Below, one piece after another: positions 38,075 through 64,000 of a stretch of 64,000 bases of DNA. The stretch's first letter is position 1, and every line of letters begins with the position of its first letter. Below the pieces are notes generated by a model, which worked only from the letters and a program-made list of their open reading frames with translations, was not told where the DNA came from and did not search any database. Origin of the DNA: Trypanosoma brucei (taxonomy: Eukaryota); contig CM000208.1 in the NCBI GenBank assembly GCA_000002445.1, positions 384,001 through 448,000 of the forward strand. The letters are read 5' to 3'. Position numbers and translations under genes: made by a program.

Positions 38075-39769
38075 CTACGCTTTTTGCCGACGTTTCGCAC
38101 TACCGCGACCACTATTGTTGGATTGGCCCGTCAAATGCCTGCTACCACGCCTATGGCTGCCACTACAGGCATTCCTGTCGCTGCCGTTTATCCCACAGGG
38201 CGGCACACCCGCTCCAGCGGCGCAGCCGTTGCCGCTACCATTTTTGCTGTTTGGACATGTGTAGTTGTTATAACTAACACTGGCGCCATTGCGGGAGCGG
38301 GATGCACTTTCAGATCCCCTACCGTTCAAAAAGGGACTGGCACCAGCGCTTCCGTTACCATTAGTATTGTGGCCGCGATGAGTACTGCCTCTTTCACGGC
38401 CGCCTTCACCAGCAGACTTGGGTCGTACGTCAAAAATCCTTAAAACTCGGGTCACATTCGACGATCCTGCCGCAGCGGCGCCTAAATTAGGAGATCCATT
38501 TTGGCCAAGCGAACGCTGTGACGCGGGAGCGAACGGAGTGGCATCTCCCATCCCACAACTCGCAGGGCTTGTGCCACCACGGGGGGCAGTGTACAAGTTG
38601 GCATCACCTAAACTGAGCGGAGAAGCAGAATTAATCGCCGCATCCACACCAGGGTTGGCGCAGGAGACAACCTGATTCGCATGTTGGTATGGCTGCGATG
38701 CCGGTGTCATTCTCGCAGCCGGAGTGTTGTTCATAACGGAACGCCGTTGTTGATCGCAAATGATGTTAAACACCTCGTCAGTGACGTCCCCCAGGGAAAG
38801 CATCGTCGAAGAGTAGCTCCTCTCTCCGATGTTGATCATGGTCATTGATGGAGTAATACCGTTAAGCAAACACACCAAGTTTGGAGGGGGTGGGAGTTGC
38901 AAGTCATACTCGCGGCAAATATGAATATTTTTGCAATCTTCCACATAGCGGCAGAGCCGCGAAATGTGTAACCGACATACGTCCTTCGCGGGAACATCCA
39001 GTACATCCTTTCGCTCCACCTTCGCGCCATTCGCCGCACCTTGGTTGGTTTCGCCGAGGTTTTGTGACTGCTCTTCTTTCTCTTTCGCCGCTTGCGCACT
39101 CTGAGCTATGATCAACTGCAGACCGACCGTCAGTGCAACTCTTTCAGCGGGGATTAAATCAGATTGCTCACCGTTTGTGCCGCGGCTACTGTAACTCCCT
39201 TCATTTCCCACAAGTCGGATGAACTTAAACCGGTCGGTGAGCTCTGTGGTGCTGTGGGGATCCTTGTGCAGTCGGCAACACGTGGGGGCGTTGAGGGCCT
39301 GTTGACGGAGCATCGGAAGAACATGAGGAGGCACGTGGGCCTGTCGACACCACTCGTGTCGGCAGTGGCCCTCCAGAAAGGACAAACACAGCGATGGCAG
39401 CGCTCCTTTGTTGGCCGTCGCATGAGTCGGAACCATAAGCGATAACGGCACGCGCAGCTTTCGCGAGTGAGGGTCCAGCACCCACATGTAGAGCTCACCC
39501 CCCTTCACTTCATCATCACCGGCTCCGAATTTATCATCGTAACCGCAACCTGGGGAGTCTGAGTCAACGAAGTGGTGTACAGGACCTTCTGGGTGGACAA
39601 CACGCTGAACAGAGCAGGGATATGGTGGTGGCGAGACAGCGTTGGTGGCAACAGTCAAGGCGCCGTTGGGGCTAAGATATGAATCAGGTGGAATCGGTCT
39701 CTCCTCATCGGTGACGCACCACCTCGACACCCGCTCCTCTTCAATATCGTTCCTGTCAGCGGGAGGCAT
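38075..39769 (-). CDS. CCCH-type zinc-finger protein with two fingers and a Ser/Gly/Asn-rich C-terminus. It may correspond to T. brucei ZC3H30.
   Basis: The two CCCH fingers are CLSFLEGHCRHEWCRQAH (C-x7-C-x4-C-x3-H) and CRLHISRLCRYVEDCKNIH (C-x7-C-x5-C-x3-H). The ATG was checked. The ZC3H30 assignment rests only on recalled locus order. Confidence 0.75.
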   Translation of the reverse strand: MPPADRNDIEEERVSRWCVTDEERPIPPDSYLSPNGALTVATNAVSPPPYPCSVQRVVHPEGPVHHFVDSDSPGCGYDDKFGAGDDEVKGGELYMWVLDPHSRKLRVPLSLMVPTHATANKGALPSLCLSFLEGHCRHEWCRQAHVPPHVLPMLRQQALNAPTCCRLHKDPHSTTELTDRFKFIRLVGNEGSYSSRGTNGEQSDLIPAERVALTVGLQLIIAQSAQAAKEKEEQSQNLGETNQGAANGAKVERKDVLDVPAKDVCRLHISRLCRYVEDCKNIHICREYDLQLPPPPNLVCLLNGITPSMTMINIGERSYSSTMLSLGDVTDEVFNIICDQQRRSVMNNTPAARMTPASQPYQHANQVVSCANPGVDAAINSASPLSLGDANLYTAPRGGTSPASCGMGDATPFAPASQRSLGQNGSPNLGAAAAGSSNVTRVLRIFDVRPKSAGEGGRERGSTHRGHNTNGNGSAGASPFLNGRGSESASRSRNGASVSYNNYTCPNSKNGSGNGCAAGAGVPPCGINGSDRNACSGSHRRGSRHLTGQSNNSGRGSAKRRQKA

Positions 39770-41396: not shown

Positions 41397-42845
41397 CTAT
41401 GAAGCAGTCGCACCCGATTGTTGCAATTGGGCGAGAGTGATGTTATGTAGCATACGCTCCTTTACAATAAGGTGTGAAACTTTATCCAACAGCGCCACAC
41501 TGCGCCCTACAGCTTCGTCCCATGCCGTCACCACATCATTGGCGTTTTTATTCGCCTCAAAAACGACTAACCCATCCACGCGATCAATCTTCGCGTACAG
41601 TGTGCGCGAGGCGACCATCATCATGAGGAATTCCTCCGTGTGCTGCGGCGTGAGACCCACCAATTCGGCCAGTCGAACAAGACGCAGTCGGCGATAGAAG
41701 CGGGAAATGACCAAGAGGTCGTGTTCGCTGCAGCGGCTACGAAGCAACGCCTGGCGCTCAGGGAACCCAGCGAGCTGCGGGTGATTTATGCAGAGGGCCT
41801 CTACATCATCAGCAACACGCTCACGTATGAGTTCAATACTCGTAAACTTCTCCAGTAGGTATTGAAGTTGCGGATTCTCCTCCAACCGCTTCCTCAGAGT
41901 AGTAGTGATGCCTTGAATTGCTGCCGTGCGGTCGGCAAATTTTGTGGCGGGGGAAAAGGCAGCGCACTCAGCATGATCCTCCAGTTCCTTTGGCGACGAG
42001 TGCTCGGCGATAAGATAGTGCACCGCCATGCTGCTTAGGGCTGAAACACAGGCTGTTTCATCCGTTTCGGAAAGGAATGTCTCGTACCAACAGCGAGCCA
42101 CATGGAAGTAAGAACGGCGCTGCGCGAAATATTCGCGCATCAGTTCGAAATATTTAAGCTTCGCCTGCAAGGCCCCGGGTCTTGACAGGGCACGGTGGTT
42201 TATTCGGCGCGACACAAGCCGCGCGAGCTCATAATCCTCCAACTCGAGGCACAACCGGATCAAGCGGTTAAGAGCATCGAGTTTCTCCACGCGGGGCATA
42301 TTTGTCACTGTTTCCACATGCAACCCACTGAGCAAGTCGCACGCCGCCCGCTTCTCCCCATCGTCCTCCATTAACTTCGCTAAGTCGATAGCGAATCGCA
42401 CGTGCTCAAGCTCCACATGGATACGGCTGTCAGTAAGATGCACTACGCGCTCCAACACGATGCGGCGCTGCTCACGTGACAGATTGCCTTCAGTGAGGAG
42501 GACACCGCATTCAGCGATCATGGCACCCTGTGATTGTTTGGTTTGCCCACGCTTGCGCATGAGAGTTTCCAATGTGTCAAGCATTTTTTCGTGATCTCCA
42601 TGAACGCGGTAGATCCGCAATATTTCAACTACAAGACGTTTTGCCGACAGAGCATCACCACCTAGGCGCGCCATTTTCTCGAGAGCCAAAAGCTCATTAA
42701 CGAGATCGTCCAAGCTCGAATTGGTACTGCGCAAGAGAACAGGAATGGCGGTAGCATTGATGCGTTCGAGCAACGCATCTGTCGCCTCGCTGTGATCCTC
42801 CTCCTGCTTGAAGCTCGCACACTTCCACTGGTCTACGTCGGTCAT
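41397..42845 (-). CDS. RPN5: 26S proteasome regulatory non-ATPase subunit RPN5 (PCI-domain protein)
   Basis: Blocks align with yeast Rpn5 as recalled: LVNELLALEKMAR versus LDQLLVLEKKTR, and LSGLHVETVTNMPRVEK...YELARLVSRRI versus LCELQVETYGSMEMSEK...YSQATVLSRKI. A C-terminal PCI region is present (...LYAKIDRVDGLVVFE...). The ATG was checked. Confidence 0.75.
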   Translation of the reverse strand: MTDVDQWKCASFKQEEDHSEATDALLERINATAIPVLLRSTNSSLDDLVNELLALEKMARLGGDALSAKRLVVEILRIYRVHGDHEKMLDTLETLMRKRGQTKQSQGAMIAECGVLLTEGNLSREQRRIVLERVVHLTDSRIHVELEHVRFAIDLAKLMEDDGEKRAACDLLSGLHVETVTNMPRVEKLDALNRLIRLCLELEDYELARLVSRRINHRALSRPGALQAKLKYFELMREYFAQRRSYFHVARCWYETFLSETDETACVSALSSMAVHYLIAEHSSPKELEDHAECAAFSPATKFADRTAAIQGITTTLRKRLEENPQLQYLLEKFTSIELIRERVADDVEALCINHPQLAGFPERQALLRSRCSEHDLLVISRFYRRLRLVRLAELVGLTPQHTEEFLMMMVASRTLYAKIDRVDGLVVFEANKNANDVVTAWDEAVGRSVALLDKVSHLIVKERMLHNITLAQLQQSGATAS

Positions 42846-43704: not shown

Positions 43705-46188
43705 CTAGTTGGAAGCCCCTCCAGGTCGCAAAAGTATACCTTCGTATTCCGTGAAACCGGCGTCAGCATGTGGGCGACGCCCCATGAATACCCAGTCAGG
43801 TAGTAATGCGTCATTCATGGCGGTCTTTCTTCCCTTCTGATTATGCTCTTCCTCACTTACCTCCTCATCTTCCTCTTCCCTCCCCTGGTGCTGCCGTTGC
43901 TGCTTTTGCTCCTCGCAGATCGGTTGTTCTTGTTTGTGCTGCACAAACGGTAACACATCGTTCAAATACAGACGGGCCTGAGCCACGACATCGGCGTGTT
44001 GACTCCTCTTCAATAGCAGCTGTTGCGACCAGTCATTGGTGGTGTAACGGTTGTGAAGCATCCGTTCTACACGCATTTCGCTCGCTCCGCTGAGAAACCC
44101 AACCGACTCTTGCCGCCTCTCCTTCACTTCATCATTTTTCTCATCATCACCTTCGGCACCGCGACCCGCATCCCCTTTTGTGCGGCCATCGAATCCCCCC
44201 AGAACGCGGCCTGCCATTCGGCCCTTTACAATGCATTCCAGTAAAACTTGACTACGTGTGGTGTGATTAACAATCGCATGTCCCAAGTCACGCGAGGCGC
44301 GCAGTAACAACACTACCGTCTCCACATCCTCTGCCCTCAAATGAGCCCCCACCCTTCTCGACAAGGTAATTATTTGCATTGCAACGTCTGTCAAAGAGGT
44401 CGTGGCCACGCCGTAAAATAGCTGTTGCGCTGCTGATGGCTCCGCTGAGTGGCGGAGCGCACATGCCACCGATGAAAAGAGCCGTCGCAGGGCCCGCTGC
44501 CCAAAAAGACGCAACGCCCGACGCATGTGCCCTGGGTTCCATGGAACGGCAAATGCGGGAACGCCATCCGCAATCTGCTTCATTTTACCGCGATGCTCTC
44601 CGACATTCCACCCCACACCAAGAAGAAATAACAGTCCCTGCACAGCGTTGTGCCACTGTTTGGCTAAACGTGTGTGAACAAACGGTGCCGTCTCAATTGC
44701 AAACACTGTTACAAGCACCGTCTTTACCTCCCGCACCCCATCCCCCATGCGAGATAAGGGGGTTGCCAAAGCGTAATGCAAGTAAAGGGGCAGCCACGAC
44801 CCAGTTACACGTTCCTTGTTAAGCAGAGAAAGTTCCTGGTGATATTCCACCTCAGCAGCCTCACCGTCGTCGCCGTCCACACCGCTCCCTACAACCGTGC
44901 GCAGGGCAGGCACATCGGAGCGAAACGGCTCGGGAAGCGGAAGCCATGTCGCCCCGCGTAGCACATCGGTCGTGTAAGGCCCACTTGCCAGCGAAACCTC
45001 AGCGAATTCCATTCGCCTCCACCACTGCTCCGTCTCCACAACCTCAGAAGTCGAAGAATCCTCAGCGGTATCCTGCCATTGTGACACAACAATGTGTGTC
45101 TCCTTCTCAGAATCGTACATAGTTGCAAGTGGAGTGCGCCGGGCCGTCAGGTGGATTAGGTCAAAGGAAGTCATTGTGAAAGACCCTTCGGAGGGCGAGT
45201 CCTGTGGAACCAGGCACGTAAACTGCAACACGTATAACGAACTCTCCTTAAGGCGAAGTGTCACCACCAGCATATACGATCCAGCAAACTCAACCCGCTC
45301 CGCAATTGTGTCTTTGGGAAAAGTGATGTGCTGTAACTTCCGCGACGCACAAGGGGCCATCAGATCTAACACATAACACTTTGAGCCATTGTCGTTCAAC
45401 ACAGCTGCGTAAGTCCGGTCCTTTGTCTTCGTTTCAGCACCGCCTTTCCCGCAACAGTTGCGAGAAACCACTAGCGCAGGTGTGGTGTGCGTGCCGCGGG
45501 TACGCCGAATCATGACGCTCAATGAGGCAACCTGCTCGCACGTCGTCTCCATTGTTTCCATGCGGGACACGGTAGCCCGTACCAAGCGGCCGCTGCCTGT
45601 AAGCACAAGTAGTGATGTGGCTGAAAGTGCTTGAATGCTGCGAATACCTTCGGCAGTAAAACCTGTGTCCACCACACGGGCTTCAGATATGAATGACCGC
45701 CACCTGACATTGCTTAGGTTCTCAGAGGATGGGATACTAAACCTTGTGGCAATACACAACTCTGCCCGGGTTTCACTCTCGTCCTTGCATTCGACGAGGA
45801 AGGCAACAATATTAGCACTTAGACAGCACACGTCAAGCACGCGCGCCGCGGGGTCGGCGGAACTAGCACGCGCCACCCACTGCAGTGCCCACGTGTCGCA
45901 TCGGAATACGGCGACGTGGAAGAATAGCTCTGTTGATGCTTGTCCTTTTGTACGATTGAAAGCCACGGCTACGTGCTCACCCGCCAACTTTCGTTTCTTT
46001 GACCGACCCATTCCAGCGTCTTGCGCACCCCCCGACGCAAAGGCACTCCATGAAGTTGCCCACGCAGCAGAGGCCTCAGGAGCGGCTTCACTTACCAGCC
46101 GTATCCTTCCCGACGGCCTTCTTCCGTGTAGATCCATGAACAAATCATGGTAAGCGACCCGCTTGCTCGCCGATAAACTGAGTGCCAT
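43705..46188 (-). CDS. Hypothetical protein of 827 aa
   Basis: A long ORF in the transcription-unit orientation. The track begins it at a TTG at 46194, and the first ATG is at 46188-46186. I recognise no domain. The C-terminus is acidic and Q-rich. Confidence 0.6.
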   Translation of the reverse strand: MALSLSASKRVAYHDLFMDLHGRRPSGRIRLVSEAAPEASAAWATSWSAFASGGAQDAGMGRSKKRKLAGEHVAVAFNRTKGQASTELFFHVAVFRCDTWALQWVARASSADPAARVLDVCCLSANIVAFLVECKDESETRAELCIATRFSIPSSENLSNVRWRSFISEARVVDTGFTAEGIRSIQALSATSLLVLTGSGRLVRATVSRMETMETTCEQVASLSVMIRRTRGTHTTPALVVSRNCCGKGGAETKTKDRTYAAVLNDNGSKCYVLDLMAPCASRKLQHITFPKDTIAERVEFAGSYMLVVTLRLKESSLYVLQFTCLVPQDSPSEGSFTMTSFDLIHLTARRTPLATMYDSEKETHIVVSQWQDTAEDSSTSEVVETEQWWRRMEFAEVSLASGPYTTDVLRGATWLPLPEPFRSDVPALRTVVGSGVDGDDGEAAEVEYHQELSLLNKERVTGSWLPLYLHYALATPLSRMGDGVREVKTVLVTVFAIETAPFVHTRLAKQWHNAVQGLLFLLGVGWNVGEHRGKMKQIADGVPAFAVPWNPGHMRRALRLFGQRALRRLFSSVACALRHSAEPSAAQQLFYGVATTSLTDVAMQIITLSRRVGAHLRAEDVETVVLLLRASRDLGHAIVNHTTRSQVLLECIVKGRMAGRVLGGFDGRTKGDAGRGAEGDDEKNDEVKERRQESVGFLSGASEMRVERMLHNRYTTNDWSQQLLLKRSQHADVVAQARLYLNDVLPFVQHKQEQPICEEQKQQRQHQGREEEDEEVSEEEHNQKGRKTAMNDALLPDWVFMGRRPHADAGFTEYEGILLRPGGASN

Positions 46189-47709
46189 TAACAAACAAAC
46201 CTACAAGTCAATCCAGTAATCACGTGTCACCTTTTCTCACTGTTTCCTCTTACCCTTTCCCCGTACGTAGCGACTTTTTCCGTGCGCAGCCTCTCTTATC
46301 TGCCAACGCGTGGTTCTCCACTCCTTCCCCCTTCCCTTTTTTTTACTTTATTTCCAGCCTTCTATATCGTTGTGGTAGCGAGGCGCAGCTGCCCTCCTTC
46401 GGCCACACACAAGCAAAGACCAGCTGGGATTGAGACGATGGGCCCGGACGGCCACCACCTACACTAACTTTTGTGAGAAGGGGAAGTCACGGCAGGAGAC
46501 AAGGCGGGCAGAGTGGAGTAAGAATTATGTAAGGAGACGAAAAAGAAGGGGGAGAAACAAGTGATGGTCAAGCAATACAGACAGCAAAAGAGAATGCATG
46601 ATTACCTGCTCCAAAGGATCTCACTACAGATGGAACGGCCTGCAGAAAGTATTTGTCAGTCGTTTCGCTCTTTCGTCACTGGCTTCTTCAGCGCACAGAA
46701 GAAGTTTTAAGTCATCGCAATAAAACGATCATGCGGATGTGGCTCAAACTGCCGTTCCTCGCACCCCGTATTTCCCCCCCCCCCCATACACACACACACG
46801 GGACCACGAATCGGATTCCCACAAGTACGAATCTACGTGCAAAAAGGGGTGGGAGAAACAAGACAAAACAATAAGTCAAAACAAGAAGAGTAGAGGTCGA
46901 GAGTGCCCAACTGTAAAGATATTACACACCGAGATGGCGTATGCGTGTGCGCGAGTGCAGCTGGTTCACATCGTGTTCCTTTCCAGCCCTTCAAGTGATT
47001 ACTTCCTTTTCCCCTCCCTTGCTTCCACTTCACACGAACAGTTTCCCTTCACCCTCTGCTGCACCTCCATCCTCATTAGGCTAAGGTGCAGGTGAGCGAG
47101 TGGCAGCATGCCCACATTCGTCGCCCCCTCTTCTGCTTCGCTTGTGTAGGGAAAGAAATATACGAAGGTCAGCCGTTCGTGCATCTGTTTGAACACCGTA
47201 AACGCGCTGCCTTCACTCCCTTCCCATATTCGACCTGGTGCCGGCGCCGTTTAGAGTACTCGCATCACCGTCACTACCTTTGTTATGACTCTTGGCTTCA
47301 CCGTTGCTCCTCACGTTCTCTAGCTTGGCCTGCTGCTGTACCCACACGGCTGAAAGAGATATAAATAATAATAATAATAATGAATGTTTCAGCTGATATC
47401 CAGCATTTACATGTTTCGCACGCCGAACGCTACACTTATAAACGGCCGCGTTTCCTTGTTCACTGACGTTAATTCGCTTCCTCCTACACTGTCAACAACC
47501 ATATGTGCCCTTTTTTTTAAAATTTTTCGTTTAACGCTACGGTGACAACAGATCTCTCCTATTAATCCACTTTTTTGTTAACTTTCGTGCTCCTAACTTT
47601 GCCTACCACCTATAACTCCGCGTACCGGAATATCCCTAATGCCCCGTGCCCAAACATGCGGAAAGAGGCAGGTGCTAGCCGGCACGCGCAGCGCTAAGGA
47701 GGAACGTCT

Positions 47710-50625: not shown

Positions 50626-51756
50626 TTACTTCAGAACTTGCCTGACGGAGACACCGCGGGAAAACTCCTCCCGCAACTTGCTGTCAATGAACCCCGACAA
50701 AGCGCCTTCCTGCGAGCGTTCAAACACTAATGCTAACCACCGCTTTCGTGGGAAGGGGACGCATCCAAGACCTTTGACTTTGTAGTCCATCCCCATGCCC
50801 AAGTCCCACACTTTACACCCTACGGAGCGCATCACCTCCCCCACAACCGCTAGCTGAAGCGTTCCTGCACCGCTCGCGCAGTAGGCACCTGTAGCAGAGG
50901 TATAAATATCGCCAACAACGAACCCGACTTCAGCTGCAACGAGGTCACCTTCCTCAACATGATCACCATGTGCGCGGTTACACATGGCGCTGCCTCCACT
51001 GCTTTCGGTCTTGGCATCCGTCCCAACATCATGACGGTGGCGCCGAATTGCTGTAAAAACAATTTTTGTACGGTATCGCTCGCTGTTCACGAACATATGC
51101 ACAAGACACACGCGAAGGCCATGACAGAGCCAGTTCTCTCCGTGCTGTGCATGTATGAGAGAAAGCACAGGGGCCACATCTTCCTTCCGGTTCACGAACA
51201 CATCGTAGGAAGCTGCACGCGTACTCAAATTTCTCTCACGTGTATATTTCTTTGACACCTGCAGCCGCTTCACCATGAAGACTCCCTCATCATCATCACC
51301 TCCCGTGGGGAACCCCTTTACATGCGACTGCAGCTGCGTTAGATAGCGTTGGCAGTGTAGTTTAGGACCGTAAACAAACGAACCTCCGATATCAAAGGCC
51401 AACGGGAACACTCCTCGCTGACACGATGCGTCTATTATCTGGGGAGAAAACGTGGTTGAGAAGCCCATTTCATTTTCCCCACCACTAGCCAAAAATCGCG
51501 AAACAAAGGAGTCTATCTCGTCTGCGCTACGTAACCGCGGATACCACATCGACAGTGCCCCAGCCATGGAGGGAGACAGGCTCGACTCGACAGAAACGTC
51601 CTTCTTCTTTATAGCCTCTGAAACCTCATTGCTAACCCTTTCTGCCTCCGGCAGCACCTTTTCAGATTTTACTCTGTAATGTTGTGTTGTATGCCGCATT
51701 AAACTGGTGGCTTCATCCCAAGAAAACCAGAACAAAAGAGAAGTGGATTGGTACAT
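50626..51756 (-). CDS. Leu/Phe-tRNA-protein transferase (bacterial Aat/LFTR)-like protein
   Basis: The CQRGVFPLAFDIGGSFVYGP block aligns with E. coli Aat ([21 protein letters not shown]), and the C-terminal block EGDLVAAEVGFVVGDIY...KVWDLG aligns with [23 protein letters not shown]...KLIDCQ. The track's ORF starts at a TTG, and the first ATG is at 51756-51754. The functional call comes from motifs I recalled, so confidence in it is only moderate. Confidence 0.5.
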   Translation of the reverse strand: MYQSTSLLFWFSWDEATSLMRHTTQHYRVKSEKVLPEAERVSNEVSEAIKKKDVSVESSLSPSMAGALSMWYPRLRSADEIDSFVSRFLASGGENEMGFSTTFSPQIIDASCQRGVFPLAFDIGGSFVYGPKLHCQRYLTQLQSHVKGFPTGGDDDEGVFMVKRLQVSKKYTRERNLSTRAASYDVFVNRKEDVAPVLSLIHAQHGENWLCHGLRVCLVHMFVNSERYRTKIVFTAIRRHRHDVGTDAKTESSGGSAMCNRAHGDHVEEGDLVAAEVGFVVGDIYTSATGAYCASGAGTLQLAVVGEVMRSVGCKVWDLGMGMDYKVKGLGCVPFPRKRWLALVFERSQEGALSGFIDSKLREEFSRGVSVRQVLK

Positions 51757-52700
51757 CCATCTGCACGCACAACTATTTGTACTAATGAGCAAGTGATTGA
51801 GTCAGTGAGTACCACAAAAATAAGTAAAACTCTCTTCAGTAAAATTCTTCGGAGGAAAAAGAAAGACCGTTCATAGCAATATTGCAGCGGACAGGCCGGG
51901 GGAAGTAAACAGCGAAAGGGAAGGCTATAAGTGGTCTTTAGTTTTTAAAACGGTCACTCTTTACACAAGTACCACGGACTCCAAAGTACTCTTCCAACGC
52001 CCAAAGGCGACAGACACCAATAGCGTAATAAGTCCTGCTTCCTAACACTGACTGCAGGAAGGGCATGCAGCATTTTCCGTAAGCCGTGCAACTGTGCCGG
52101 CCCTACAACCACTCCCAATGCCACAGTACCTACCACCACTTGGTATCAGCAGCATTCTGCGTCACGTCCAGGAGCCGGGGAATTTAGAGAGGAAAATGTA
52201 GTGAACTCACTCAAAATTCACCCCCCCCCTGATAACGCTAATTAAACAAAGAAAATAACGACGTCGCACCCCACGCACTTGTCGTGCATCTCCATAGGAT
52301 GCGAATGAAGTGCCGATACCAGAACCAGCACAAGAGCAGCCAATGAGAATGGGGTATCCCTTTATTTACCCTTCGTTCGGCTTTGGAGTGAGTATCGACC
52401 TACCAGTACCTTCCAGTGGTGTGACCGCTGTCAACACCGACAAAAATACCTACCTCAGACGCACACAAGTGTGCAACGGTAGATATGGGCGCACAACATG
52501 CGAGTTACAGCGACCAAGTAAGATAAAGTAATAATCACTTGGGTTCAGACCAAACGGGACTCGGAGTATACAGTTCGTAGACCCGATATAGTTCCATACC
52601 ACTTTCCACAAACCTCCACCATTCCTCACACCGCTTCCCATCGACCCAGAACCACACACACGCGCACCCGTGCAAGAAAAGAGGGGAGTGGTGGGGTCCA

Positions 52701-55302: not shown

Positions 55303-56970
55303 TCAACTCCTGCTGGATGGTATGGCCGCTGGTATCTGGCGTCGCAGCAAACCCACTCCCCCACCCTTGGAGCCACTGTTCGTACCACAGACCGTACGAC
55401 TGCTGCAAGCATCGGCAGAACCGGATGTGGGTGACGATACCCTACGAGGAGTGGAGGAAGGCCGCTCCACTGGAGAACCCGGACGGTTATTTAATGGACT
55501 GCTTCGCAGTAAAGATCTGTGAACCCTTGACGGAGATAACGCCGTCTTTCCAGCGCTCCACGCTGGTTGGACATTACTGCTCGGTTGCGATCGGTGTGGC
55601 GCAATGTTCCTGTAGGACGACAACCGTGTGGACGTCGCGAGAAACGCACTGGAATGCGAACTCACCGAACATGGACTACCTGACCGCGCTACTCCACTTC
55701 GAGAGAACCCCGTTGGTCTTGTGTAAGATGAGGTCCTTAACTGCGCGCCTCTTCCCTCAGACACAAGCGCAGATGAGGGACGCTGCACAGACCGCATCGG
55801 CGAACTGTTGTACACGACAGAGGGTAAAGGAGACCCCTTACGGTACTTGTGCCCGGACGTGAGTGTCGCGAACGGAGAGCGGGCTGGAGCGTGAATAGTG
55901 TCCGGCGATGGCAGGTGCGTGTGATATTCACCGACGTGACTTGCTCCATCAATCGTGGAATATCCGCTAGCCGTACGTGCGGCCTGCGATGAGGTGGCCC
56001 CGTCAAAAGCTGAGCAACTCCTGCCACTCTTTGATTCAAAACGTAGCGTGAGCTCTTGCCGTCCATGTGGATTTGTGCTAGGATCGGATTCGACACTACG
56101 ACCGCAGGGAGAGACACTGTGACGCATGATACTGTTGCTACGACGACGCCCCTCAAGGGCAATGGAACCATGGTAACCGAGGAAGTGATTCCCCGGTTCA
56201 CTTTGACGCAGTGGCTGAACGGTAACAACAGGCGTGCCGCTCCTTGGTTCAACATCTGACCCTTGCTTAGTGTCAACAAACACCAGACGCTTAGCCTTCT
56301 TCATGCGTGTTGTAGTAACTCGCACGTCGGACGTTTTAACTGGTTGGCCGACATCTACCTTGCTTGAGCACAGTTTGTATAGCTCGTTCTGACGCTGGCT
56401 GGCGGAGGTAAGACCATTAAGTAGTGTGTTACGAAGCATCCACTGGACATTGTCCAAACCAAAAGATGAATCGTCCACGTCAACATCAAAAATATCGTGT
56501 TCTATAGTGTTGCGCTTCGCAAACATTCGGAGTTGTCGCAGAAAATGTGGTTTTATGGACATGTCCTTGTGAGCCATTTCCAAAAAGGAGATGGCACTCT
56601 CCAGTTTCCACCCATACTTCACGATCAGGTAGGCCGCTACTAAGGCTGGGCTACGTGACATACCGAGTTGGCTGTGTACCAACACGCAATCACCAGCTTC
56701 AAGTGCCTCATCTATGAACCGCACCGTCCGCTTAACATTTTCATCCGCACTATCAAACATTACTGCTGTGCAGACTGAACCAGTAGGGTCTTTCCAGGGA
56801 AACGTAAGATATTTTACGCCATCGTCTGCGAAAAGATCAGCGAGCTCGCCACCGGCACAGTTAACAACATGGGTTATCTTGTTGAGTGAAATGAACTCAC
56901 GATCGTGTGCAGCCACCGCATTTCCCACGAAGATGCCATCCTTGACACGGACAGCGATAAGTTCCTGCAT
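55303..56970 (-). CDS. Dual-specificity-phosphatase-like protein with the catalytic Cys replaced by Ser (predicted pseudophosphatase), followed by a Ser-rich C-terminal region
   Basis: The N-terminal DUSP fold reads ...FPWKDPTG...DCVLVHSQLGMSRSPALVAAYLI... and the canonical motif is VHCxxGxSRS. I checked the codon on the DNA: + strand 56671-56673 is gct, reverse complement AGC, which is Ser. The general-acid Asp (WKD) and the Arg of the CX5R motif are kept. The ATG at 56970-56968 was checked. Confidence 0.8.
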   Translation of the reverse strand: MQELIAVRVKDGIFVGNAVAAHDREFISLNKITHVVNCAGGELADLFADDGVKYLTFPWKDPTGSVCTAVMFDSADENVKRTVRFIDEALEAGDCVLVHSQLGMSRSPALVAAYLIVKYGWKLESAISFLEMAHKDMSIKPHFLRQLRMFAKRNTIEHDIFDVDVDDSSFGLDNVQWMLRNTLLNGLTSASQRQNELYKLCSSKVDVGQPVKTSDVRVTTTRMKKAKRLVFVDTKQGSDVEPRSGTPVVTVQPLRQSEPGNHFLGYHGSIALEGRRRSNSIMRHSVSPCGRSVESDPSTNPHGRQELTLRFESKSGRSCSAFDGATSSQAARTASGYSTIDGASHVGEYHTHLPSPDTIHAPARSPFATLTSGHKYRKGSPLPSVVYNSSPMRSVQRPSSALVSEGRGAQLRTSSYTRPTGFSRSGVARSGSPCSVSSHSSAFLATSTRLSSYRNIAPHRSQPSSNVQPAWSAGKTALSPSRVHRSLLRSSPLNNRPGSPVERPSSTPRRVSSPTSGSADACSSRTVCGTNSGSKGGGVGLLRRQIPAAIPSSRS

Positions 56971-57786: not shown

Positions 57787-59682
57787 CTACTCGTTGCTTT
57801 CATCATCTTCGTCCTCATCCTCTCCATCCACCTTCGCTGGTTTGACCGGTTTTGCGACCTCTTCCACCATGTAGAAGTAGTTCCCCGCGATTTTCTGTTC
57901 ACGATCTTTAACCGAGTCAAACTTGTTGATTCGCGGACGGAAATTCGATGGATCACGTCTGAAAGTAATATCGAGGCTTTTCAAAAATTTGTTCATTCCC
58001 TCCAAGAGGGCACAGGGAGCGTTGGCCTTGCAATTTACAGCTGGAGTGCCGTCGTATACAATAACACGATCCGCCAGGTATGTTGCCATAATAAAATCGT
58101 GCTCAACGATGAACGCAGTTCGTTTGGCATGCATAATGTATCTCTTGATGACACGGGCAGCTATTATACGCTGGTCCGAATCCAAGTAGGCACTGGGTTC
58201 GTCTATTAGATAGATATTTGCCGGTGTGCCGAGGGCAAGGCATAGACCAACGCGTTGCAACTGACCACCGGAAAGGTGTTGCACCTCCTGATCGTACAGC
58301 TCCTCAACTGTCATGGGTTTTAGTACATCTGTCTGGAATTGGGGATTAGAGAACGCTTCGTATATCTTTGATTGGAGAAGATCCTTCACGGTTCCCTGAA
58401 ACTTCGGTGCGATCTTCTGTGGTTTGTAACTTATGCACAGTTGAGGTACTTCCACTTCATTATCCGGTTTAATGTGGCCAGCGAGCATGCGAATAAACGT
58501 CGTTTTACCACATCCATTCTCACCTAGAAGGACAACAATCTCAGAGTCAGAAAAGGATCCCGATTCGACAGTTAATGTAAACCCTCCCAAATTCTTTACC
58601 ATGGACGGGTAAGAATGTTGTACACTGCGTTTGGTCGTCTCTTCCAAGTCATCGGTAATGCGAAATGACAAACTCTCTTGACGAAACCTCAGATTTTCAG
58701 TTGGGACAAAACCATCCAAGAAAATGTTAATACCTTCTCGGACCCCGTAAGGCATCGTTACCACTCCGTAGATTCCGGGAACGCCGTAGAGAACACACAC
58801 GAAGTCGGACATATAGTCCACAACAGAAAGGTCATGCTCAACGACAACAACATAATTATCATCTTTCAGCAGAGAACGAATCACCTTAGCGGCCATCAGT
58901 CTCTGCCGAACATCCAAATAACTAGAAGGCTCGTCAAACATGTACACTGAGGCATTTTGGACACAGAGAGCAGCAATGGTAAACCGCTGTAGCTCACCAC
59001 CAGATAATTTTTCGAGTTCGCGATCAGCAACGTTTTCTATATCAAGTTCCTTCATATAGTAGTCCTTCACACCCCGCTCATCAGCTTTAGTTAGTAGATC
59101 CCCCACTTTTCCCTTGGTAACTTTGGGAACCTGATCCACATATTGTGGTTTCAGGAGAACACGCATCTTTTGCTCCAGCATGTGTTGAAAATACGCTTGG
59201 TGCTCAGACCCTCGAAAGTATTTTAATATCTCCTCCCAACTGGGTTCATCCTTATAGCGACCAAGATTTGGCTTAGTCTTGCCCTTCAGAATAGACAATG
59301 CCGTCGATTTGCCCGTGCCATTCGCTCCAACGAGTCCCAAGACCTGCCCTGGACGAGGAAGAGGTAGCCTATGGAGTTTGAAACTATTGGGGCCGTACCG
59401 ATGAACAGTATCTTTATTCAGATTGGATGGCAAGTTGATGATTTGAATGGCTCCATAAGGACATTTTTTAACGCATAAACCGCAGCCAATACAAAGTTCT
59501 TCTGAAATTACAGAAATTGTTGACTTTTTTTGAACCACAACACATAGTTTCCCCTGAAGGTTAACTGGACAGCACTTACTGCACTCTAGATTGCATTTTG
59601 CTGGCTTGCATCGGTCGTGGTTTACAACGGCAATACGAGTCAGTTTAGACTTTTCCTCATCTTGCCTGTTTTTAGGTGGCAT
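57787..59682 (-). CDS. ABCE1: ABCE1 / RNase L inhibitor (ribosome-recycling ATPase)
   Basis: The N-terminal 4Fe-4S ferredoxin-type cysteine clusters ([15 protein letters not shown] and [12 protein letters not shown]) are present. There are two ABC domains with Walker [10 protein letters not shown] / GENGCGKTT and signatures LSGGELQR / LSGGQLQR. The track starts the ORF at a TTG at 59721, and the first ATG is at 59682-59680 ([23 protein letters not shown]...). Confidence 0.93.
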
Positions 59683-61448
59683 GTTAAAAGCTAATAGTAC
59701 TTTACCTTCATTAAAATGCAACAGAAGCCGCTAGTTATACGTCAGGAAGCAGTAGGTTCCTATTAACAGGACCTTGCGTTCGTATCAGTTTCGCTCCTTA
59801 CTCCGCGTTCGCACAGCGTACGACAGATGATAGATCTGTAAAATGTGTGTTAACCCTCGTACACACAACAGAAAAGGCAAGTCTCTTTCCCAGATATAGT
59901 TCGACAAACAAACCTCTGACATTCATTTACCACACAAATTACCCATTCCAAAAAGTATAACACTCCACCCATCACAAAAGCGAGCTGCTTGCGGTCATGA
60001 GCACCCACAGTGAAGGTCGCATTTCGCAGGGGAAAAAACACCACGCGACAGGAAACTGTGGGACTACAGAGATACATGCGTAGCGCACATTGTGGTCCTT
60101 AAAAATAAAAATAAGTTTTGTATTGCTTGGTAGGAAGTGTAAAAAAGGAAACCCCCCCCCCCGATAAGTTGGCACTTCAGATGACATTATCGGTCAAGAA
60201 TTGCCATACGCTCACAAAACCGAGCCATCATACGAATATGTATATATATTGGAGCATCGTACGGCATACCAAGAAAACTGCAGTTAGCTGGGTGAAAAGT
60301 CACCACACTGGCGTTTTTTTTTTACGATTCATAGAAAAAAACACGTAGGTGGAGTAACCGCGAGTGGATGCCACGACATACTGTAACAACTGTCACCCTC
60401 TTAGTCGCGCCCCCCCAAAAAAAAAAAAACTTAGAGACTCATCATTGGCTTATGTGGAAAGGTGGATAACACACGAAAAAGTATAACATGGGACGGGCAC
60501 CTCCTGTATTCAGTCCGAAGAGGGAAGTCCATTTGCAACAACGGTGAGTCCACTTGCCAGGCGAGAAAAAAAAAAGCAAACAGAAATTAGGTTAGCAACA
60601 AATCCTTTAGCTTCCCAGACGGAAAAAGAAATATATCCCTTACTCAACGGTCTCCCCCCCCCCACACACACACACAAGGCAAAATATAGAAAAAAACAAA
60701 TCGCAGCACGCACAAACTAAGAATAGACAGCGGCACTACCTCTTTAGCAATACGAAACCACGTTACAGAACTATCAGCGAAGGCACAGGGAAAACCTGAA
60801 CATATAGATAGAGAAAAAATCAGGCAGCAGTCCTGCAACCCTCTGACGACTTCAACAACGTTTTTTTTTTTGATGGCGAACATGCTTTATTCCTGCAACC
60901 AGTGCAAACGTAAATAAATTCTGACTTAAGGAAGTGGAAAGCGTTTACCCTTCAAAGCACTCAGAAACGCACAAACCGAAAATCTGATGGCGCTCGACAT
61001 ATGATGACAGACGCCATTCTTTTTTTTTTTTGACAACGAAGAAAAAAGTGCAACAAAGATGGCCACGTGAAGAAGTGATAAGGCCACGGTCGCGCCAGCA
61101 TCCGCCATCACTGGTAACCTCCAATCCATATACAACGGGGACAACAAAAATGTCAGTTGCTTCACCTTCAGGTAAAGGGACACCGAAGTGTGTAGGACAG
61201 AAAGTTTGGAGCCAGACAAAAATAAAACGACCGCATTGCCGCAACACGGAACATAGAAAAGTGAGGGAGAGTGACGACACGCACCAGCGGAGAAACCCAT
61301 CTAAGCGGTAACTTGAAAAGAAGTGCATGCACACACCAACAAATCTTACCTCAATCCTATATAGGAGTGCAACACAAACAAAAAGGGCAAAGCCAAACAC
61401 TACGCACCAACATCTACTACTACTGCCACCACCACCAAAAAATCTCCT

Positions 61449-62160: not shown

Positions 62161-63048
62161 CTACTGGAACGGTACAGATCCATGTCTCTCATCCGGACTG
62201 ACGCTTAACACAGTTTTAATTGCCTCTGGCTCGCTACCGTACATCAGCTGAAGGTTCGATGCGACTGCGGGAGGTACGTAAGCAGCCGCCTTTGAGTCTG
62301 AGTTCACTCCTTGAATCATCGGGACCACGCCCACCCTCCTGAGAAAATAATCGACGCGATGAGCCGGGCTGTCATTCCTCAGTAGCGTGTCCTTTGTGCT
62401 ACCGGCAAGGTTTAACAATGACCTCTGGTTACCACTTGAGAGTATCTCACGAAGTGTGCCAAAGGCAACGTCACGGCTGAACTGCACGCCGCGACCGTAC
62501 TCAGGATATCGTGTAATGAGCCAGGGGAAAAAAGTAATGAATGGATTTATCCTTCGTTCTGCGAGGTACTCATCCTTAATCCGCTGACGGCTAGATTTGT
62601 CGTACTGTATGGTGAAGAGCAAATAAGTCGCTTGCTCATCTACACTTCCAATCCACAAAGGTAATGCCAAATCCTCTGATACACCGCCAAAAAGCCGCTG
62701 TATAATGATTTTCGACGAAACAAAAACAAGCACCACACCAGTAAAAAACATGAGCCAGTCAACGCGACGCTCTCCTTGGGATAAGTTTCCAAAATTAGGG
62801 GCATTTCCTTGGGAAGCTTCGCGAGCACGAAAAGCAGCACTGGTCGCCAGCCCTCCCATCGCGAAATGTCCATAACTGAAGCCGGAAAATTCGGATATGC
62901 TGAGTCCCTTATATTTTTTGGCTACCTTTTCTCTAAGCGCCAACTCTCTTGACCGCTCTTGGGGGTCCTCATTGATTATCATCCTCCTTGGAACAAGTCC
63001 ACCGTGAAAAAGAATAACCGAACAACGGCGTAGTTCCTGACGAAACAT
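62161..63048 (-). CDS. Hypothetical protein of 296 aa with one predicted transmembrane helix (WLMFFTGVVLVFVSSKIIIQRLF)
   Basis: The track's ORF starts at a GTG at 63120, and the first ATG is at 63048-63046. Immediately upstream, a minus-strand polypyrimidine tract followed by AG supports this start. I recognise no domain. Confidence 0.5.
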   Translation of the reverse strand: MFRQELRRCSVILFHGGLVPRRMIINEDPQERSRELALREKVAKKYKGLSISEFSGFSYGHFAMGGLATSAAFRAREASQGNAPNFGNLSQGERRVDWLMFFTGVVLVFVSSKIIIQRLFGGVSEDLALPLWIGSVDEQATYLLFTIQYDKSSRQRIKDEYLAERRINPFITFFPWLITRYPEYGRGVQFSRDVAFGTLREILSSGNQRSLLNLAGSTKDTLLRNDSPAHRVDYFLRRVGVVPMIQGVNSDSKAAAYVPPAVASNLQLMYGSEPEAIKTVLSVSPDERHGSVPFQ

Positions 63049-63070
63049 ATTCCCTTCCCCACCCCCAGGA

Positions 63071-63103
63071 GAAATTAAAATTAGAGAAAAAATAGAAAAA
63101 AAA
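63071..63103 (-). promoter_or_regulatory. Polypyrimidine tract with a downstream AG, a candidate trans-splice acceptor signal for the gene starting at 63048
   Basis: The minus strand reads ...ttttttttctattttttctctaattttaatttctcctgggggtggggaagggaatATG. This follows the established kinetoplastid polyY + AG trans-splicing signal architecture. Confidence 0.4.
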
Positions 63104-64000
63104 CGGCACTCATTTATCACGAAAAGGGGAACTGCTCGTCGCCGTTACAACATGCCCCCAACAGAGATTTTCTTCTCCCCAGAACCTAAATTATCACATC
63201 ATGTCCCGCACAAATTCATACAAATAGGGGACAACGTAACTATGAATAATGTCCCTAATAACACTTTAATGCCACAAAGACTAGAAAATTGGGTCCCAGC
63301 GGCTGCCCAAACAGTCGTGAACGCCGAAATTTGAAACCCACCACAAACACACCGGAAACGACCGAATAGCACGGACCCCACTGGAGCCCACCCCCTGCGG
63401 AAACGTCACGATAACAAGCCGCTGTAGGATCCACAAAAGCTTCTTACCAACCGGACACTCGTGTTGTAACGCCCTAGGGTCAACAGACACGCGCAGCAAG
63501 CAATGTCGCCCATGCTGGGAGCCTCCACAAAATTTACACCGGGCGACGTCAAGCCCCACCGTCCAGCGCCACTCGATTGAATACCGCCGGGTCGATCCAG
63601 CGCAGGGGAAGCACCACCAGCAGTGTGACAGCAAGAGGGGGGAACCCCCACTTCCCATCCGAGGCTGAGCTCTGCCCCCTCGAGAGGAGGGGAACACACA
63701 CACAGACGCTCGCGGACTGACAGCAACTGCGAAGTGAAACACAGATTCATTTCCACTACCACCCGTGGCGGTCCGCCGCGCCAGGCAGACACCCCCGGAG
63801 GTCAGTGGTAGCAGGTTCGCTCCTGCAACGGCACATCGCGTTCGACCGCCGCAGCCTACCAAAAATTCTGTTTTTCCCCCATGTGGTTGGAATAGGTCCG
63901 GTGCCGAAGAGTCGAGTGGTTTACTTCGGACCAGCCCACAAGTGACGGAAGCAGATTAAATTCTTACGTGCGGAAAAGTGGATCATGTCTGCGTGCCCCT

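What the first reader, a model, noticed from the sequence alone, without database searches (positions are those of the whole stretch)
55303..56970. DUSP-like gene whose catalytic cysteine is replaced by serine: a likely pseudophosphatase
The phosphatase signature reads VHSQLGMSRS where the canonical form is VHCxxGxSRS. I verified on the DNA that the nucleophile codon is AGC (Ser), one transition away from TGC (Cys). Every other catalytic-site element is kept: the general-acid Asp in FPWKD, the Arg of the CX5R motif, and the Ser/Thr after the Arg. Cys-to-Ser is the classic substitution that abolishes DUSP catalysis but keeps phospho-substrate binding (substrate trapping). A natural version is expected to act as a phospho-binding or scaffold protein, like STYX-type pseudophosphatases. 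A long Ser-rich tail of about 300 aa follows the domain and could itself be a phospho-regulated interaction region.
Basis: partly seen in the sequence, partly recalled or inferred. Interest (0 to 1): 0.6.

Follow-up and report, generated by a model that had tools for sequence, protein, structure and literature searches.

The report
Known trypanosome Cys-to-Ser pseudophosphatase gene
This is Trypanosoma brucei gene Tb927.10.1620, a phosphatase look-alike with serine in place of its catalytic cysteine; it was published as a "STYX" pseudophosphatase in 2007, and what I add is that the serine is ancestral across a large protist family whose tails are packed with R-x-x-S-P motifs.

Summary
ORF 55303-56970 (-) encodes a 555-aa protein with a DSPc domain (Pfam E=9e-21). 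Its P-loop reads VHSQLGMSRS, and the nucleophile codon is AGC at 56671-56673. One slip: AGC to TGC is a transversion, not a transition.

Ser is kept in 55 of 59 close homologues and in 175 of 184 members of a wider family. That family spans Discoba (kinetoplastids, diplonemids, euglenids, Heterolobosea, a jakobid) and Alveolata. The P-loop Arg and His and the Asp/Glu of the acid loop are also kept.

It is not new. Brenchley et al. 2007 list this gene (Tb10.70.6300, Q38C79) as the single T. brucei "STYX", with this exact P-loop. [quoted passage not shown] I found no functional study.

What I add:
- "STYX" here is an analogy, not orthology.
- Cys, Asp and Gly variants are derived.
- An NTxLN helix after the domain is near-invariant.
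- The tails carry R-x-x-S-P 7-fold more often than composition predicts, and one such site (S513) is phosphorylated in vivo.

The finding as submitted is already known and of low interest. The family-level picture is moderately interesting.

The parts
55303..56970 (-). Complete CDS of Tb927.10.1620 (old ID Tb10.70.6300, Q38C79), 555 aa plus stop
   Evidence: ORF. 100% identical database protein. Gene IDs.
56518..56934 (-). Dual-specificity-phosphatase fold (Pfam DSPc, aa 13-151)
   Evidence: One search gives E=8.9e-21. The AF2 model has pLDDT 86.7. Foldseek matches VHR, DUSP1, DUSP28, DUSP19 and DUSP22 at E about 1e-11.
56788..56802 (-). Acid loop FPWKD (aa 57-61). D61 aligns with the general-acid Asp57 of DUSP22
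   Evidence: Alignment. Across 184 family members the position is Asp in 140 and Glu in 38.
56650..56679 (-). P-loop VHSQLGMSRS (aa 98-107), the HCX5R(S/T) signature with Ser in place of Cys
   Evidence: In the family, His99 is kept in 169/184, Gly103 in 175/184 and Arg106 in 182/184.
56671..56673 (-). Codon AGC for Ser100, at the position of the catalytic Cys
   Evidence: Ser in 175/184 family members. Codons in other species are AGC, AGT, TCT and TCG.
56410..56454 (-). Family-specific helix after the domain, DNVQWMLRNTLLNGL (aa 173-187), with the near-invariant N-T-x-x-N
   Evidence: N181, T182 and N185 are invariant in A1. Across 185 aligned sequences (184 with a P-loop) they are kept in 182, 177 and 178. 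Modelled as helix 174-186.
55306..56370 (-). Disordered Ser/Arg/Pro-rich tail, aa 201-555
   Evidence: Composition. pLDDT is below 50 for most of it.
56257..56280 (-). Conserved tail motif FVDTKQGS (aa 231-238). D233 is invariant
56050..56094 (-). Conserved tail motif VESDPSTNPHGRQEL (aa 293-307). It lies in the one tail stretch that reaches pLDDT 63-78 (the 10-residue blocks covering aa 291-310)
   Evidence: Consensus LESDPxxNPKGRQ. pLDDT.
55822..55881 (-). Best-conserved tail motif RSPFATLTSGHKYRKGSPLP (aa 364-383). P366, R377, S380 and P383 are invariant. It contains the first R-x-x-S-P site
55672..55686 (-). R-x-x-S-P site RSGSP (aa 429-433)
55588..55620 (-). Conserved tail motif SSYRNIAPHRS (aa 451-461)
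   Evidence: Consensus SSYRxIAPxRS. Coordinates.
55471..55485 (-). R-x-x-S-P site RPGSP (aa 496-500)
55429..55443 (-). R-x-x-S-P site RVSSP (aa 510-514). S513 is phosphorylated in vivo
   Evidence: Phospho-S513 has localisation probability 0.975 in PMC11408851 supplementary dataset 2.
55306..55350 (-). Conserved C-terminal motif LLRRQIPAAIPSSRS (consensus RRQxPxxIxSRR)

Best explanation
The gene encodes an expressed protein built on a dual-specificity-phosphatase fold. Published GO terms place it in the cytoplasm. The cysteine nucleophile has been serine since before kinetoplastids diverged, so the protein cannot carry out normal thiol-based phosphate transfer. The rest of the phosphate-binding pocket (His99, Gly103, Arg106, Ser107, Asp61) is under strong purifying selection.

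The most likely mechanism is a pocket that binds a phosphorylated ligand without hydrolysing it, as a natural substrate trap or phospho-reader. This pocket is coupled to a long disordered tail. The tail carries several conserved short linear motifs and four R-x-x-S-P sites, at least one of which is phosphorylated in vivo.

The protein would therefore act as a phosphorylation-dependent adaptor or scaffold. It could protect, sequester or localise phosphoproteins. It could also bind its own phosphorylated tail, either within one molecule or between molecules.

Shown here: the sequence features, the fold, the conservation, protein expression and phospho-S513. Inferred: loss of activity, phospho-ligand binding and the scaffold role.
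For: - Ser100 is encoded by AGC inside an otherwise canonical P-loop.
- AF2 gives a DUSP fold with pLDDT 86.7 and Foldseek E about 1e-11 to VHR and DUSP1/19/22/28.
- The best PDB sequence match is the engineered DUSP22 C88S substrate-trap mutant.
- Ser is present in 55/59 close homologues and in 175/184 members of the wider family. Arg106 is kept in 182/184, His99 in 169/184, Gly103 in 175/184, and position 61 is Asp or Glu in 178/184.
- Both Ser codon classes are used, which indicates selection for Ser itself.
- Among trypanosomes the domain dN is 0.08-0.13 while dS is saturated.
- Non-Ser members sit nested among Ser members in an NJ tree.
- The protein was detected with 9 peptides and 22% coverage, and carries a GO cytoplasm term.
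- S513, within RVSSP, is phosphorylated and changes after DNA damage.
- R-x-x-S-P is enriched in family tails, 541 observed against 73 expected.
- The gene was classified as an inactive STYX phosphatase by Brenchley 2007 and in later reviews.
Against: - No biochemical measurement exists for this protein or any orthologue. A 2017 review states that none of these atypical DUSPs had been characterised, and I found no later study.
- In vertebrate STYXL2, which has a similar layout, the dead domain is dispensable and the tail does the work. Pocket function therefore cannot be assumed.
- AF2 does not dock the RKGSPLP motif on the domain, although the model is unphosphorylated.
- It is unresolved which Asp is the general-acid equivalent. 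The 2007 paper lists AVMFDSADENV in a motif column of its alignment table, which I read as its D-motif. D73 is also more conserved than D61 (174 against 140 of 184).
Confidence: 0.7

Rival explanations
1. The tail is the functional part, and the dead DSP domain is only a folded anchor whose pocket binds nothing. This is how vertebrate STYXL2 is reported to work.
For: STYXL2 has the same layout: an N-terminal DSPc with Cys replaced by Ser, followed by a long C-terminal region. It works through its C-terminus without the domain. The T. brucei tail holds invariant motifs (D233, P366, R377, S380, P383) and an in vivo phosphosite.
Against: A pocket with no role should drift. Instead Arg106, Gly103, His99 and Ser100 are kept in 92-99% of 184 members spanning Discoba and Alveolata. 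The domain is about twice as conserved as the tail, with mean conservation 0.70 against 0.35.
Confidence: 0.15
2. The protein is still an enzyme. Either Ser100 acts as a nucleophile, or the pocket acts on a different, possibly non-protein, substrate with different chemistry.
For: Every other catalytic element is retained, and Ser specifically is selected rather than any small residue. Both codon classes encode it. The few Gly and Asp variants are rare.
Against: Established knowledge, not tested here: Cys-to-Ser mutants of PTP-fold and DUSP enzymes are used as inactive substrate traps. The many C-to-S DUSP crystal structures that top the search lists fit this. No metal site or second nucleophile is evident. 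Cys95 is invariant only in the 42-sequence kinetoplastid-dominated alignment and is Ser in the wider family.
Confidence: 0.1
3. It is a prozyme-like partner that binds and regulates an active phosphatase or kinase, in the way trypanosomatids use dead paralogues of other enzymes.
For: Trypanosomatids use enzyme-prozyme pairs, for example PRMT1. Inactive myotubularins regulate active ones (cited).
Against: No close active paralogue appeared among the homologues found. The family also exists far outside trypanosomatids. There are no interaction data.
Confidence: 0.05
4. The Ser is a sequencing or strain error, or the gene is a decaying pseudogene.
For: None beyond the single-base distance from TGC.
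Against: The same residue is present in the TREU927 reference, in the T. equiperdum record and in about 95% of 184 relatives. The 555-codon ORF is intact, the protein was detected by mass spectrometry, and the gene is under strong purifying selection.
Confidence: 0.005

Closest known systems
TriTryp "STYX" group of atypical DSPs (Brenchley et al. 2007, BMC Genomics 8:434): Tb10.70.6300, Tc00.1047053506977.10 and LmjF21.0700
   Same: It is this very gene. The paper lists it as 555 aa, Q38C79, class STYX, with P-loop VH*SQLGMSRS and the catalytic Cys substituted.
   Different: Nothing differs for the gene itself. The paper treats the group as one gene per TriTryp species. It does not describe the wider Discoba and Alveolata family, the NTxLN helix or the tail motifs.
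Human STYX (phosphoserine/threonine/tyrosine-interacting protein, PDB 2r0b)
   Same: DSP fold with the nucleophile replaced and the P-loop Arg kept. It is the prototype of a phospho-binding dead phosphatase.
   Different: STYX has Gly, not Ser, at the nucleophile position. It has no long tail. It is not the closest relative: STYX ranks about 40th in the profile-versus-PDB search (E=6.6e-17, against 2.7e-22 for DUSP22) and 37th by Foldseek. The shared name reflects analogy, not orthology.
STYXL2 / DUSP27 (vertebrate striated-muscle pseudophosphatase)
   Same: N-terminal DSPc domain with Cys replaced by Ser, followed by a long C-terminal region.
   Different: STYXL2 acts through its C-terminus, and its domain is dispensable. 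Here the pocket residues are strongly conserved. Orthology was not tested and is unlikely given the taxon distribution.
MK-STYX / STYXL1
   Same: A natural Ser at the nucleophile position in a DSP domain (from memory).
   Different: MK-STYX has an N-terminal rhodanese/CH2 domain and also lacks the His before the nucleophile (from memory). The trypanosome protein has only DSPc in Pfam and keeps His99.
Engineered C-to-S substrate-trapping DUSP mutants (for example DUSP22 C88S 6l1s, VHR C124S 1j4x, DUSP1 C258S 6apx)
   Same: The same single substitution in an otherwise intact active site. DUSP22 C88S is the top PDB sequence hit.
   Different: Those are laboratory mutants of active enzymes. Here the substitution is natural, ancestral and under selection.

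Membership tests
Dual-specificity phosphatase fold (Pfam DSPc PF00782, class I Cys-based PTP superfamily) | Sequence and fold match to the DSP catalytic domain | tested here: met
   Pfam E=8.9e-21, 74.5 bits against a cut-off of 33.5. Foldseek E about 1e-11 with TM 0.6-0.9 to many DUSPs.
Dual-specificity phosphatase fold (Pfam DSPc PF00782, class I Cys-based PTP superfamily) | Catalytic Cys in the HCX5R signature, as an active enzyme requires | tested here: not met
   The position is Ser100, codon AGC.
Dual-specificity phosphatase fold (Pfam DSPc PF00782, class I Cys-based PTP superfamily) | P-loop Arg and general-acid Asp | tested here: met
   R106 is present and D61 aligns with DUSP22 D57. 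Whether D61 or D73 plays the acid role is not settled.
STYX-type pseudophosphatase (functional class) | PTP/DSP fold with the nucleophile replaced, and the replacement conserved in orthologues | tested here: met
   Ser in 55/59 close homologues and 175/184 family members.
STYX-type pseudophosphatase (functional class) | No catalytic activity, binds phosphorylated ligands, and activity is restored by putting Cys back | not testable with these tools
   This needs recombinant protein assays. Natural Cys-bearing relatives exist (P0043, P0045, P0101, P0185) and could be assayed.
Orthologue of metazoan STYX | Specific sequence or structural closeness to STYX over other DUSPs, and Gly at the nucleophile position | tested here: not met
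   STYX ranks about 40th by profile search and 37th by Foldseek. The residue is Ser, not Gly.
MK-STYX / STYXL1 | N-terminal rhodanese (CH2) domain before the DSP domain | tested here: not met
   The DSP domain starts at residue 13, and the only other Pfam hits are two sub-threshold PTP-type families overlapping it.
Discoba/Alveolata HSX5R pseudo-DSP family (defined here) | VL[VI]HS-x2-G-x-[SN]-R P-loop, followed about 75 residues later by an N-T-x-x-N helix | tested here: met
   The T. brucei protein has both. N181, T182 and N185 are kept in 177-182 of 185 aligned sequences. 470 cluster representatives reach E<=1e-30.
Discoba/Alveolata HSX5R pseudo-DSP family (defined here) | Disordered tail enriched in R-x-x-S-P | tested here: met
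   The T. brucei tail has four sites. Family-wide there are 541 against 73 expected, and 126 of 172 tails have at least one.

The most novel reading that the evidence does not exclude
Tb927.10.1620 is not a kinetoplastid oddity. It belongs to an old, apparently undescribed eukaryotic family found in jakobids, Heterolobosea, Euglenozoa, ciliates, dinoflagellates, perkinsids and chromerids. In this family the DSP nucleophile has been Ser since the common ancestor. The dead pocket co-occurs with an NTxLN helix and a tail carrying multiple R-x-x-S-P-[L/M] phosphosites.

The pocket may read the family's own phosphorylated tail motifs. That would give phosphorylation-dependent self-association or multivalent scaffolding. 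Occasional Ser-to-Cys reversions, as in the Trypanoplasma lineage, would turn the protein back into an enzyme.
Probability: 0.3. Interest if true: 0.6.

Novelty: already known. Interest (0 to 1): 0.3.

Why it matters
For the finding as submitted, little changes. The gene has been listed as the T. brucei STYX-type pseudophosphatase since 2007 and is annotated as such.

It remains functionally uncharacterised, and the comparative data give the experiments a clear shape.
- The pocket residues are conserved over a very deep divergence, so the pocket probably does something.
- Natural Cys-bearing relatives offer a ready-made revertant control.
- The conserved RKGSPLP and other R-x-x-S-P sites, one of them phosphorylated in vivo, are obvious candidates for regulation or self-recognition.

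If the family-wide picture holds, it would be one of the more widespread pseudophosphatase families outside animals and fungi.

Tried and rejected
- **Sequencing or strain error:** rejected. The residue is the same in the TREU927 literature record and in T. equiperdum, and Ser is conserved family-wide.
- **Orthology to human STYX or MK-STYX:** rejected. STYX is not a preferred hit, and there is no rhodanese domain.
- **Tail motif docking on the domain:** full-length AF2 shows the tail as disordered. Only aa ~290-313 reaches pLDDT 63-78, and the RKGSPLP motif does not dock.
- **dN/dS:** dS is saturated in every comparison among the species available, so only dN and a rough omega of about 0.03 for one pair could be given.
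- **Literature on function:** searches by old and new gene IDs in three species returned only the phosphatome paper, reviews and two omics tables.
- **Further phosphoproteome supplements:** two had no text held.
- **AlphaFold-database fold search for taxon breadth:** the library was not available.
- **A link to axonemal DUSPs or STYXL1 in radial spoke 3:** considered because DUSP3 and DUSP21 chains from sperm doublet structures appear among the hits and STYXL1 is reported in RS3. There is no specific similarity, and the T. brucei GO term is cytoplasm, so I did not pursue it.
Full report
**1. Observation**

The minus-strand ORF 55303..56970 is real and encodes 555 aa. An in-frame stop lies five codons upstream of Met1. 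All orthologues begin at the same MQELIAV, so the start is right.

Pfam places a DSPc domain at aa 13-151 (E=8.9e-21, 74.5 bits, cut-off 33.5). The signature VHSQLGMSRS is aa 98-107. The residue at the nucleophile position is Ser100, encoded by AGC at window 56673..56671.

FPWKD is aa 57-61. In the HMMER alignment to human DUSP22, D61 lines up with D57 of IPAAD, the general acid. Arg106 and Ser107 follow the canonical pattern.

The remaining ~355 aa are 20% Ser, 10% Arg and 8.5% Pro. AlphaFold2 predicts them to be disordered.

**2. Identity of the gene**

The protein is 100% identical to a T. equiperdum record. The neighbouring ORF 57787..59721 is ABCE1/RLI, which is Tb927.10.1630 in T. brucei.

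The supplementary tables of Brenchley et al. 2007 list Tb10.70.6300 (Q38C79, 555 aa) as class "STYX". They give its P-loop as VH*SQLGMSRS, together with Tc00.1047053506977.10 and LmjF21.0700. [quoted passage not shown] Two later reviews repeat this, and one says none of these proteins had been characterised.

[quoted passage not shown] It reports 9 peptides and 22% coverage, so the protein is made.

Searches by gene ID in three species returned no functional study.

**3.

Among 59 homologues with a P-loop, 55 have Ser. These include all Trypanosoma, Leishmania, Leptomonas, Phytomonas, Strigomonas, Bodo and Neobodo sequences. Two have Cys (P0043 and P0045, the latter from Trypanoplasma borreli), one has Asp (P0041) and one has Gly (P0052, Hemistasia).

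I built a profile of the first ~200 residues (alignment A1) and searched it against 1.84 billion cluster representatives. It found 470 proteins at E<=1e-30. The best 150 match the whole profile, including a segment after the DSP domain.

Over the 184 sequences in hand, conservation is as follows:

| Position | Conservation |
|---|---|
| Nucleophile (100) | Ser 175, Cys 4, Gly 3, Asp 2 |
| Arg106 | 182/184 |
| His99 | 169/184 |
| Gly103 | 175/184 |
| Position 61 | Asp 140, Glu 38 |
| Asp73 | 174/184 |
| N181 / T182 / N185 | 182 / 177 / 178 of the 185 aligned sequences |

The Ser codon is AGC or AGT in kinetoplastids, but TCT in one GC-rich relative that clusters with diplonemid sequences (P0048) and TCG in a relative from the non-Discoba branch (P0054). 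The Cys member uses TGC. The two Ser codon classes are not connected by a single synonymous step, so the amino acid itself is under selection.

Among trypanosomes the domain dN is 0.08-0.13 with dS saturated.

In a neighbour-joining tree the Cys/Cys/Asp trio forms one small clade inside a 45-member kinetoplastid clade that is otherwise all Ser. Every other non-Ser sequence has Ser-bearing nearest neighbours. Ser is therefore ancestral, and the Cys state arose secondarily at least three times. The tree has no bootstrap support and is midpoint-rooted, so the count is provisional.

**4. Breadth of the family**

Named members come from these taxa:
- Diplonemids: Diplonema papillatum, D. ambulator and Lacrimia.
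- Euglenids: Euglena longa and Jenningsia.
- Heterolobosea: Willaertia magna.
- Jakobids: Andalucia godoyi.
- Chromerids: Vitrella brassicaformis.
- Ciliates: Paramecium octaurelia and Halteria.
- Perkinsids: Perkinsus olseni.
- Dinoflagellates: Polarella and Effrenium.

The tree splits into a Discoba branch and a second branch. The second branch holds all the named alveolates plus several metagenome-only clades of unknown origin. The split matches organismal relationships. The family is thus not kinetoplastid-specific.

ABCE1 sits immediately upstream of the gene in T. vivax, T. theileri and L. mexicana. An ABC-transporter-domain gene, apparently the same one, does so in Bodo saltans.

**5. 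Structure and relatives**

The AF2 model of aa 1-200 (pLDDT 86.7, pTM 0.85) is a standard DUSP fold, followed by helices at 174-186 and 189-199 that carry the NTxLN motif.

Foldseek and profile searches against the PDB give DUSP22, VHR/DUSP3, DUSP10, DUSP19, DUSP28, DUSP1 and SSH2 as the best matches. Human STYX ranks 37th and about 40th. "STYX" is thus a functional label here, not orthology. The top sequence hit is the engineered DUSP22 C88S mutant, which simply has the same HS motif. The DSP domain starts at residue 13 with no rhodanese domain, so this is not an MK-STYX-type protein.

**6. The tail**

In a 42-sequence full-length alignment, the invariant tail residues are D233 (FVDTKQGT) and P366, R377, S380, P383 (RSPFATLTSGHKYRKGSPLP). 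Other conserved blocks are LESDPxxNPKGRQ, SSYRxIAPxRS and a C-terminal RRQxPxxIxSRR. In the full-length AF2 model, only the VESDP..GRQEL region (aa ~290-313) rises above the disordered baseline, to pLDDT 63-78.

Across 172 family tails of at least 100 aa, R-x-x-S-P occurs 541 times, against 73 +/- 9 in composition-preserving shuffles. It is enriched both in kinetoplastid-like members (251 against 31) and in the rest (290 against 43). Leu or Met is preferred at +2 and Arg at +4. SP alone is enriched only 1.3-fold and R..S only 1.8-fold, so the combined motif is specific. The sequences are related to one another, so the z-score overstates independence. The tails are poorly conserved, however, and the representatives are at most 50% identical.

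The T. brucei protein has four such sites, at S380, S432, S499 and S513. Phospho-S513 was observed in bloodstream-form phosphoproteomics. It fell about 8-fold after an induced double-strand break (log2 -3.09, localisation probability 0.975).

From memory, an Arg at -3 with Pro at +1 resembles the DYRK, RCK (MAK/ICK) and CDKL consensus sites. I did not test this.

**7. Mechanism**

Established knowledge of Cys-based PTPs says a Cys-to-Ser change abolishes turnover but keeps phosphate binding. That is why the C-to-S crystal structures exist.

The pocket is conserved across a very deep divergence, so the best-supported reading is a phospho-ligand-binding module. It is attached to a multi-site phosphorylated, motif-rich tail and acts as an adaptor or scaffold (confidence about 0.7 for the pseudophosphatase-with-functional-pocket core, and lower for any particular partner).

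The rivals are these:
- A tail-only function, as shown for STYXL2. Pocket conservation argues against it.
- Residual or altered catalysis by Ser100.
- A prozyme-like regulatory role (for the precedent).
- Error or pseudogene, which is refuted.

One open point remains. The 2007 paper lists AVMFDSADENV (D73) in a motif column of its alignment table, which I read as its D-motif. The DUSP22 alignment instead puts D61 at the general-acid position. D73 is the more conserved of the two. A solved structure would settle it.

**8. Verdict**

The finding itself is already known, from the 2007 phosphatome paper and the current gene annotation, so interest in it as submitted is low.

The extensions made here are:
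- An ancestral Ser in a Discoba-plus-Alveolata family.
- Natural Cys revertants.
- The NTxLN helix.
- The R-x-x-S-P tail signature, with one site phosphorylated in vivo.

I did not find these in the literature I could search. They give concrete experiments.

Noticed in passing
L004 177-2378 (P0043), P0045 (Trypanoplasma borreli transcript), L005 448-2808 (P0041): One small clade inside the kinetoplastids carries Cys (TGC), Cys and Asp (GAC) at the nucleophile position. All of its relatives have Ser. This looks like a natural Ser-to-Cys reversion that may have re-created an active phosphatase.
   Followed up: partly
window 56737-56772 (aa 67-78, CTAVMFDSADEN): Asp73 is more conserved in the family (174/184) than the presumed general acid Asp61 (140 Asp plus 38 Glu). 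The 2007 phosphatome paper lists the segment containing D73 in a motif column that I read as its D-motif, whereas alignment to DUSP22 puts D61 at the acid position. Kinetoplastids also have an insertion of about 8 residues between the two.
   Followed up: partly
window 55429-55443 (RVSSP, S513): Phospho-S513 dropped about 8-fold (log2 -3.09) after an I-SceI break in the active VSG expression site, in a published phosphoproteome (PMC11408851, supplementary dataset 2). No explanation is offered there or here.
   Followed up: no
window 57787-59721 (-) and L002, L003, L007, L010: ABCE1/RLI lies immediately upstream of the pseudophosphatase gene in T. brucei, T. vivax, T. theileri and L. mexicana. 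In Bodo saltans the upstream gene is a weak ABC-transporter-domain fragment that is probably the same gene. The T. cruzi gene IDs (508637.150 and .160) indicate the same order.
   Followed up: partly
window 1-64000: The long ORFs that have Pfam or homologue support all lie on the minus strand, as do nearly all ORFs of at least 200 aa. This fits one polycistronic transcription unit. AT-rich stretches (GC 0.33-0.39) lie at about 8-12 kb, 20-22 kb and 34-38 kb.
   Followed up: no
window 41397-42845 (-), 30137-30946 (-), 21760-28740 (-): The neighbours include a PSMD12/CSN4-type PCI-domain protein, a Ras/Rab-family small GTPase and a 2326-aa ORF that I did not examine. Several other ORFs (62161-63120, 50626-51792, 43705-46194, 38075-39769, 31469-33916) have no Pfam match at E<=1e-5.
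   Followed up: no
P0052 and P0065 (Hemistasia-type diplonemids), P0145: A few family members have Gly at the nucleophile position (IHGxxGVNRS). This is the same substitution as in metazoan STYX, and it arose independently.
   Followed up: no
window 56686-56688 (Cys95, GDCVLVHS): A Cys five residues before the nucleophile position is invariant in the 42-sequence kinetoplastid-dominated alignment, but the wider family has Ser there (GESVLVHS). Its significance is unknown.
   Followed up: no
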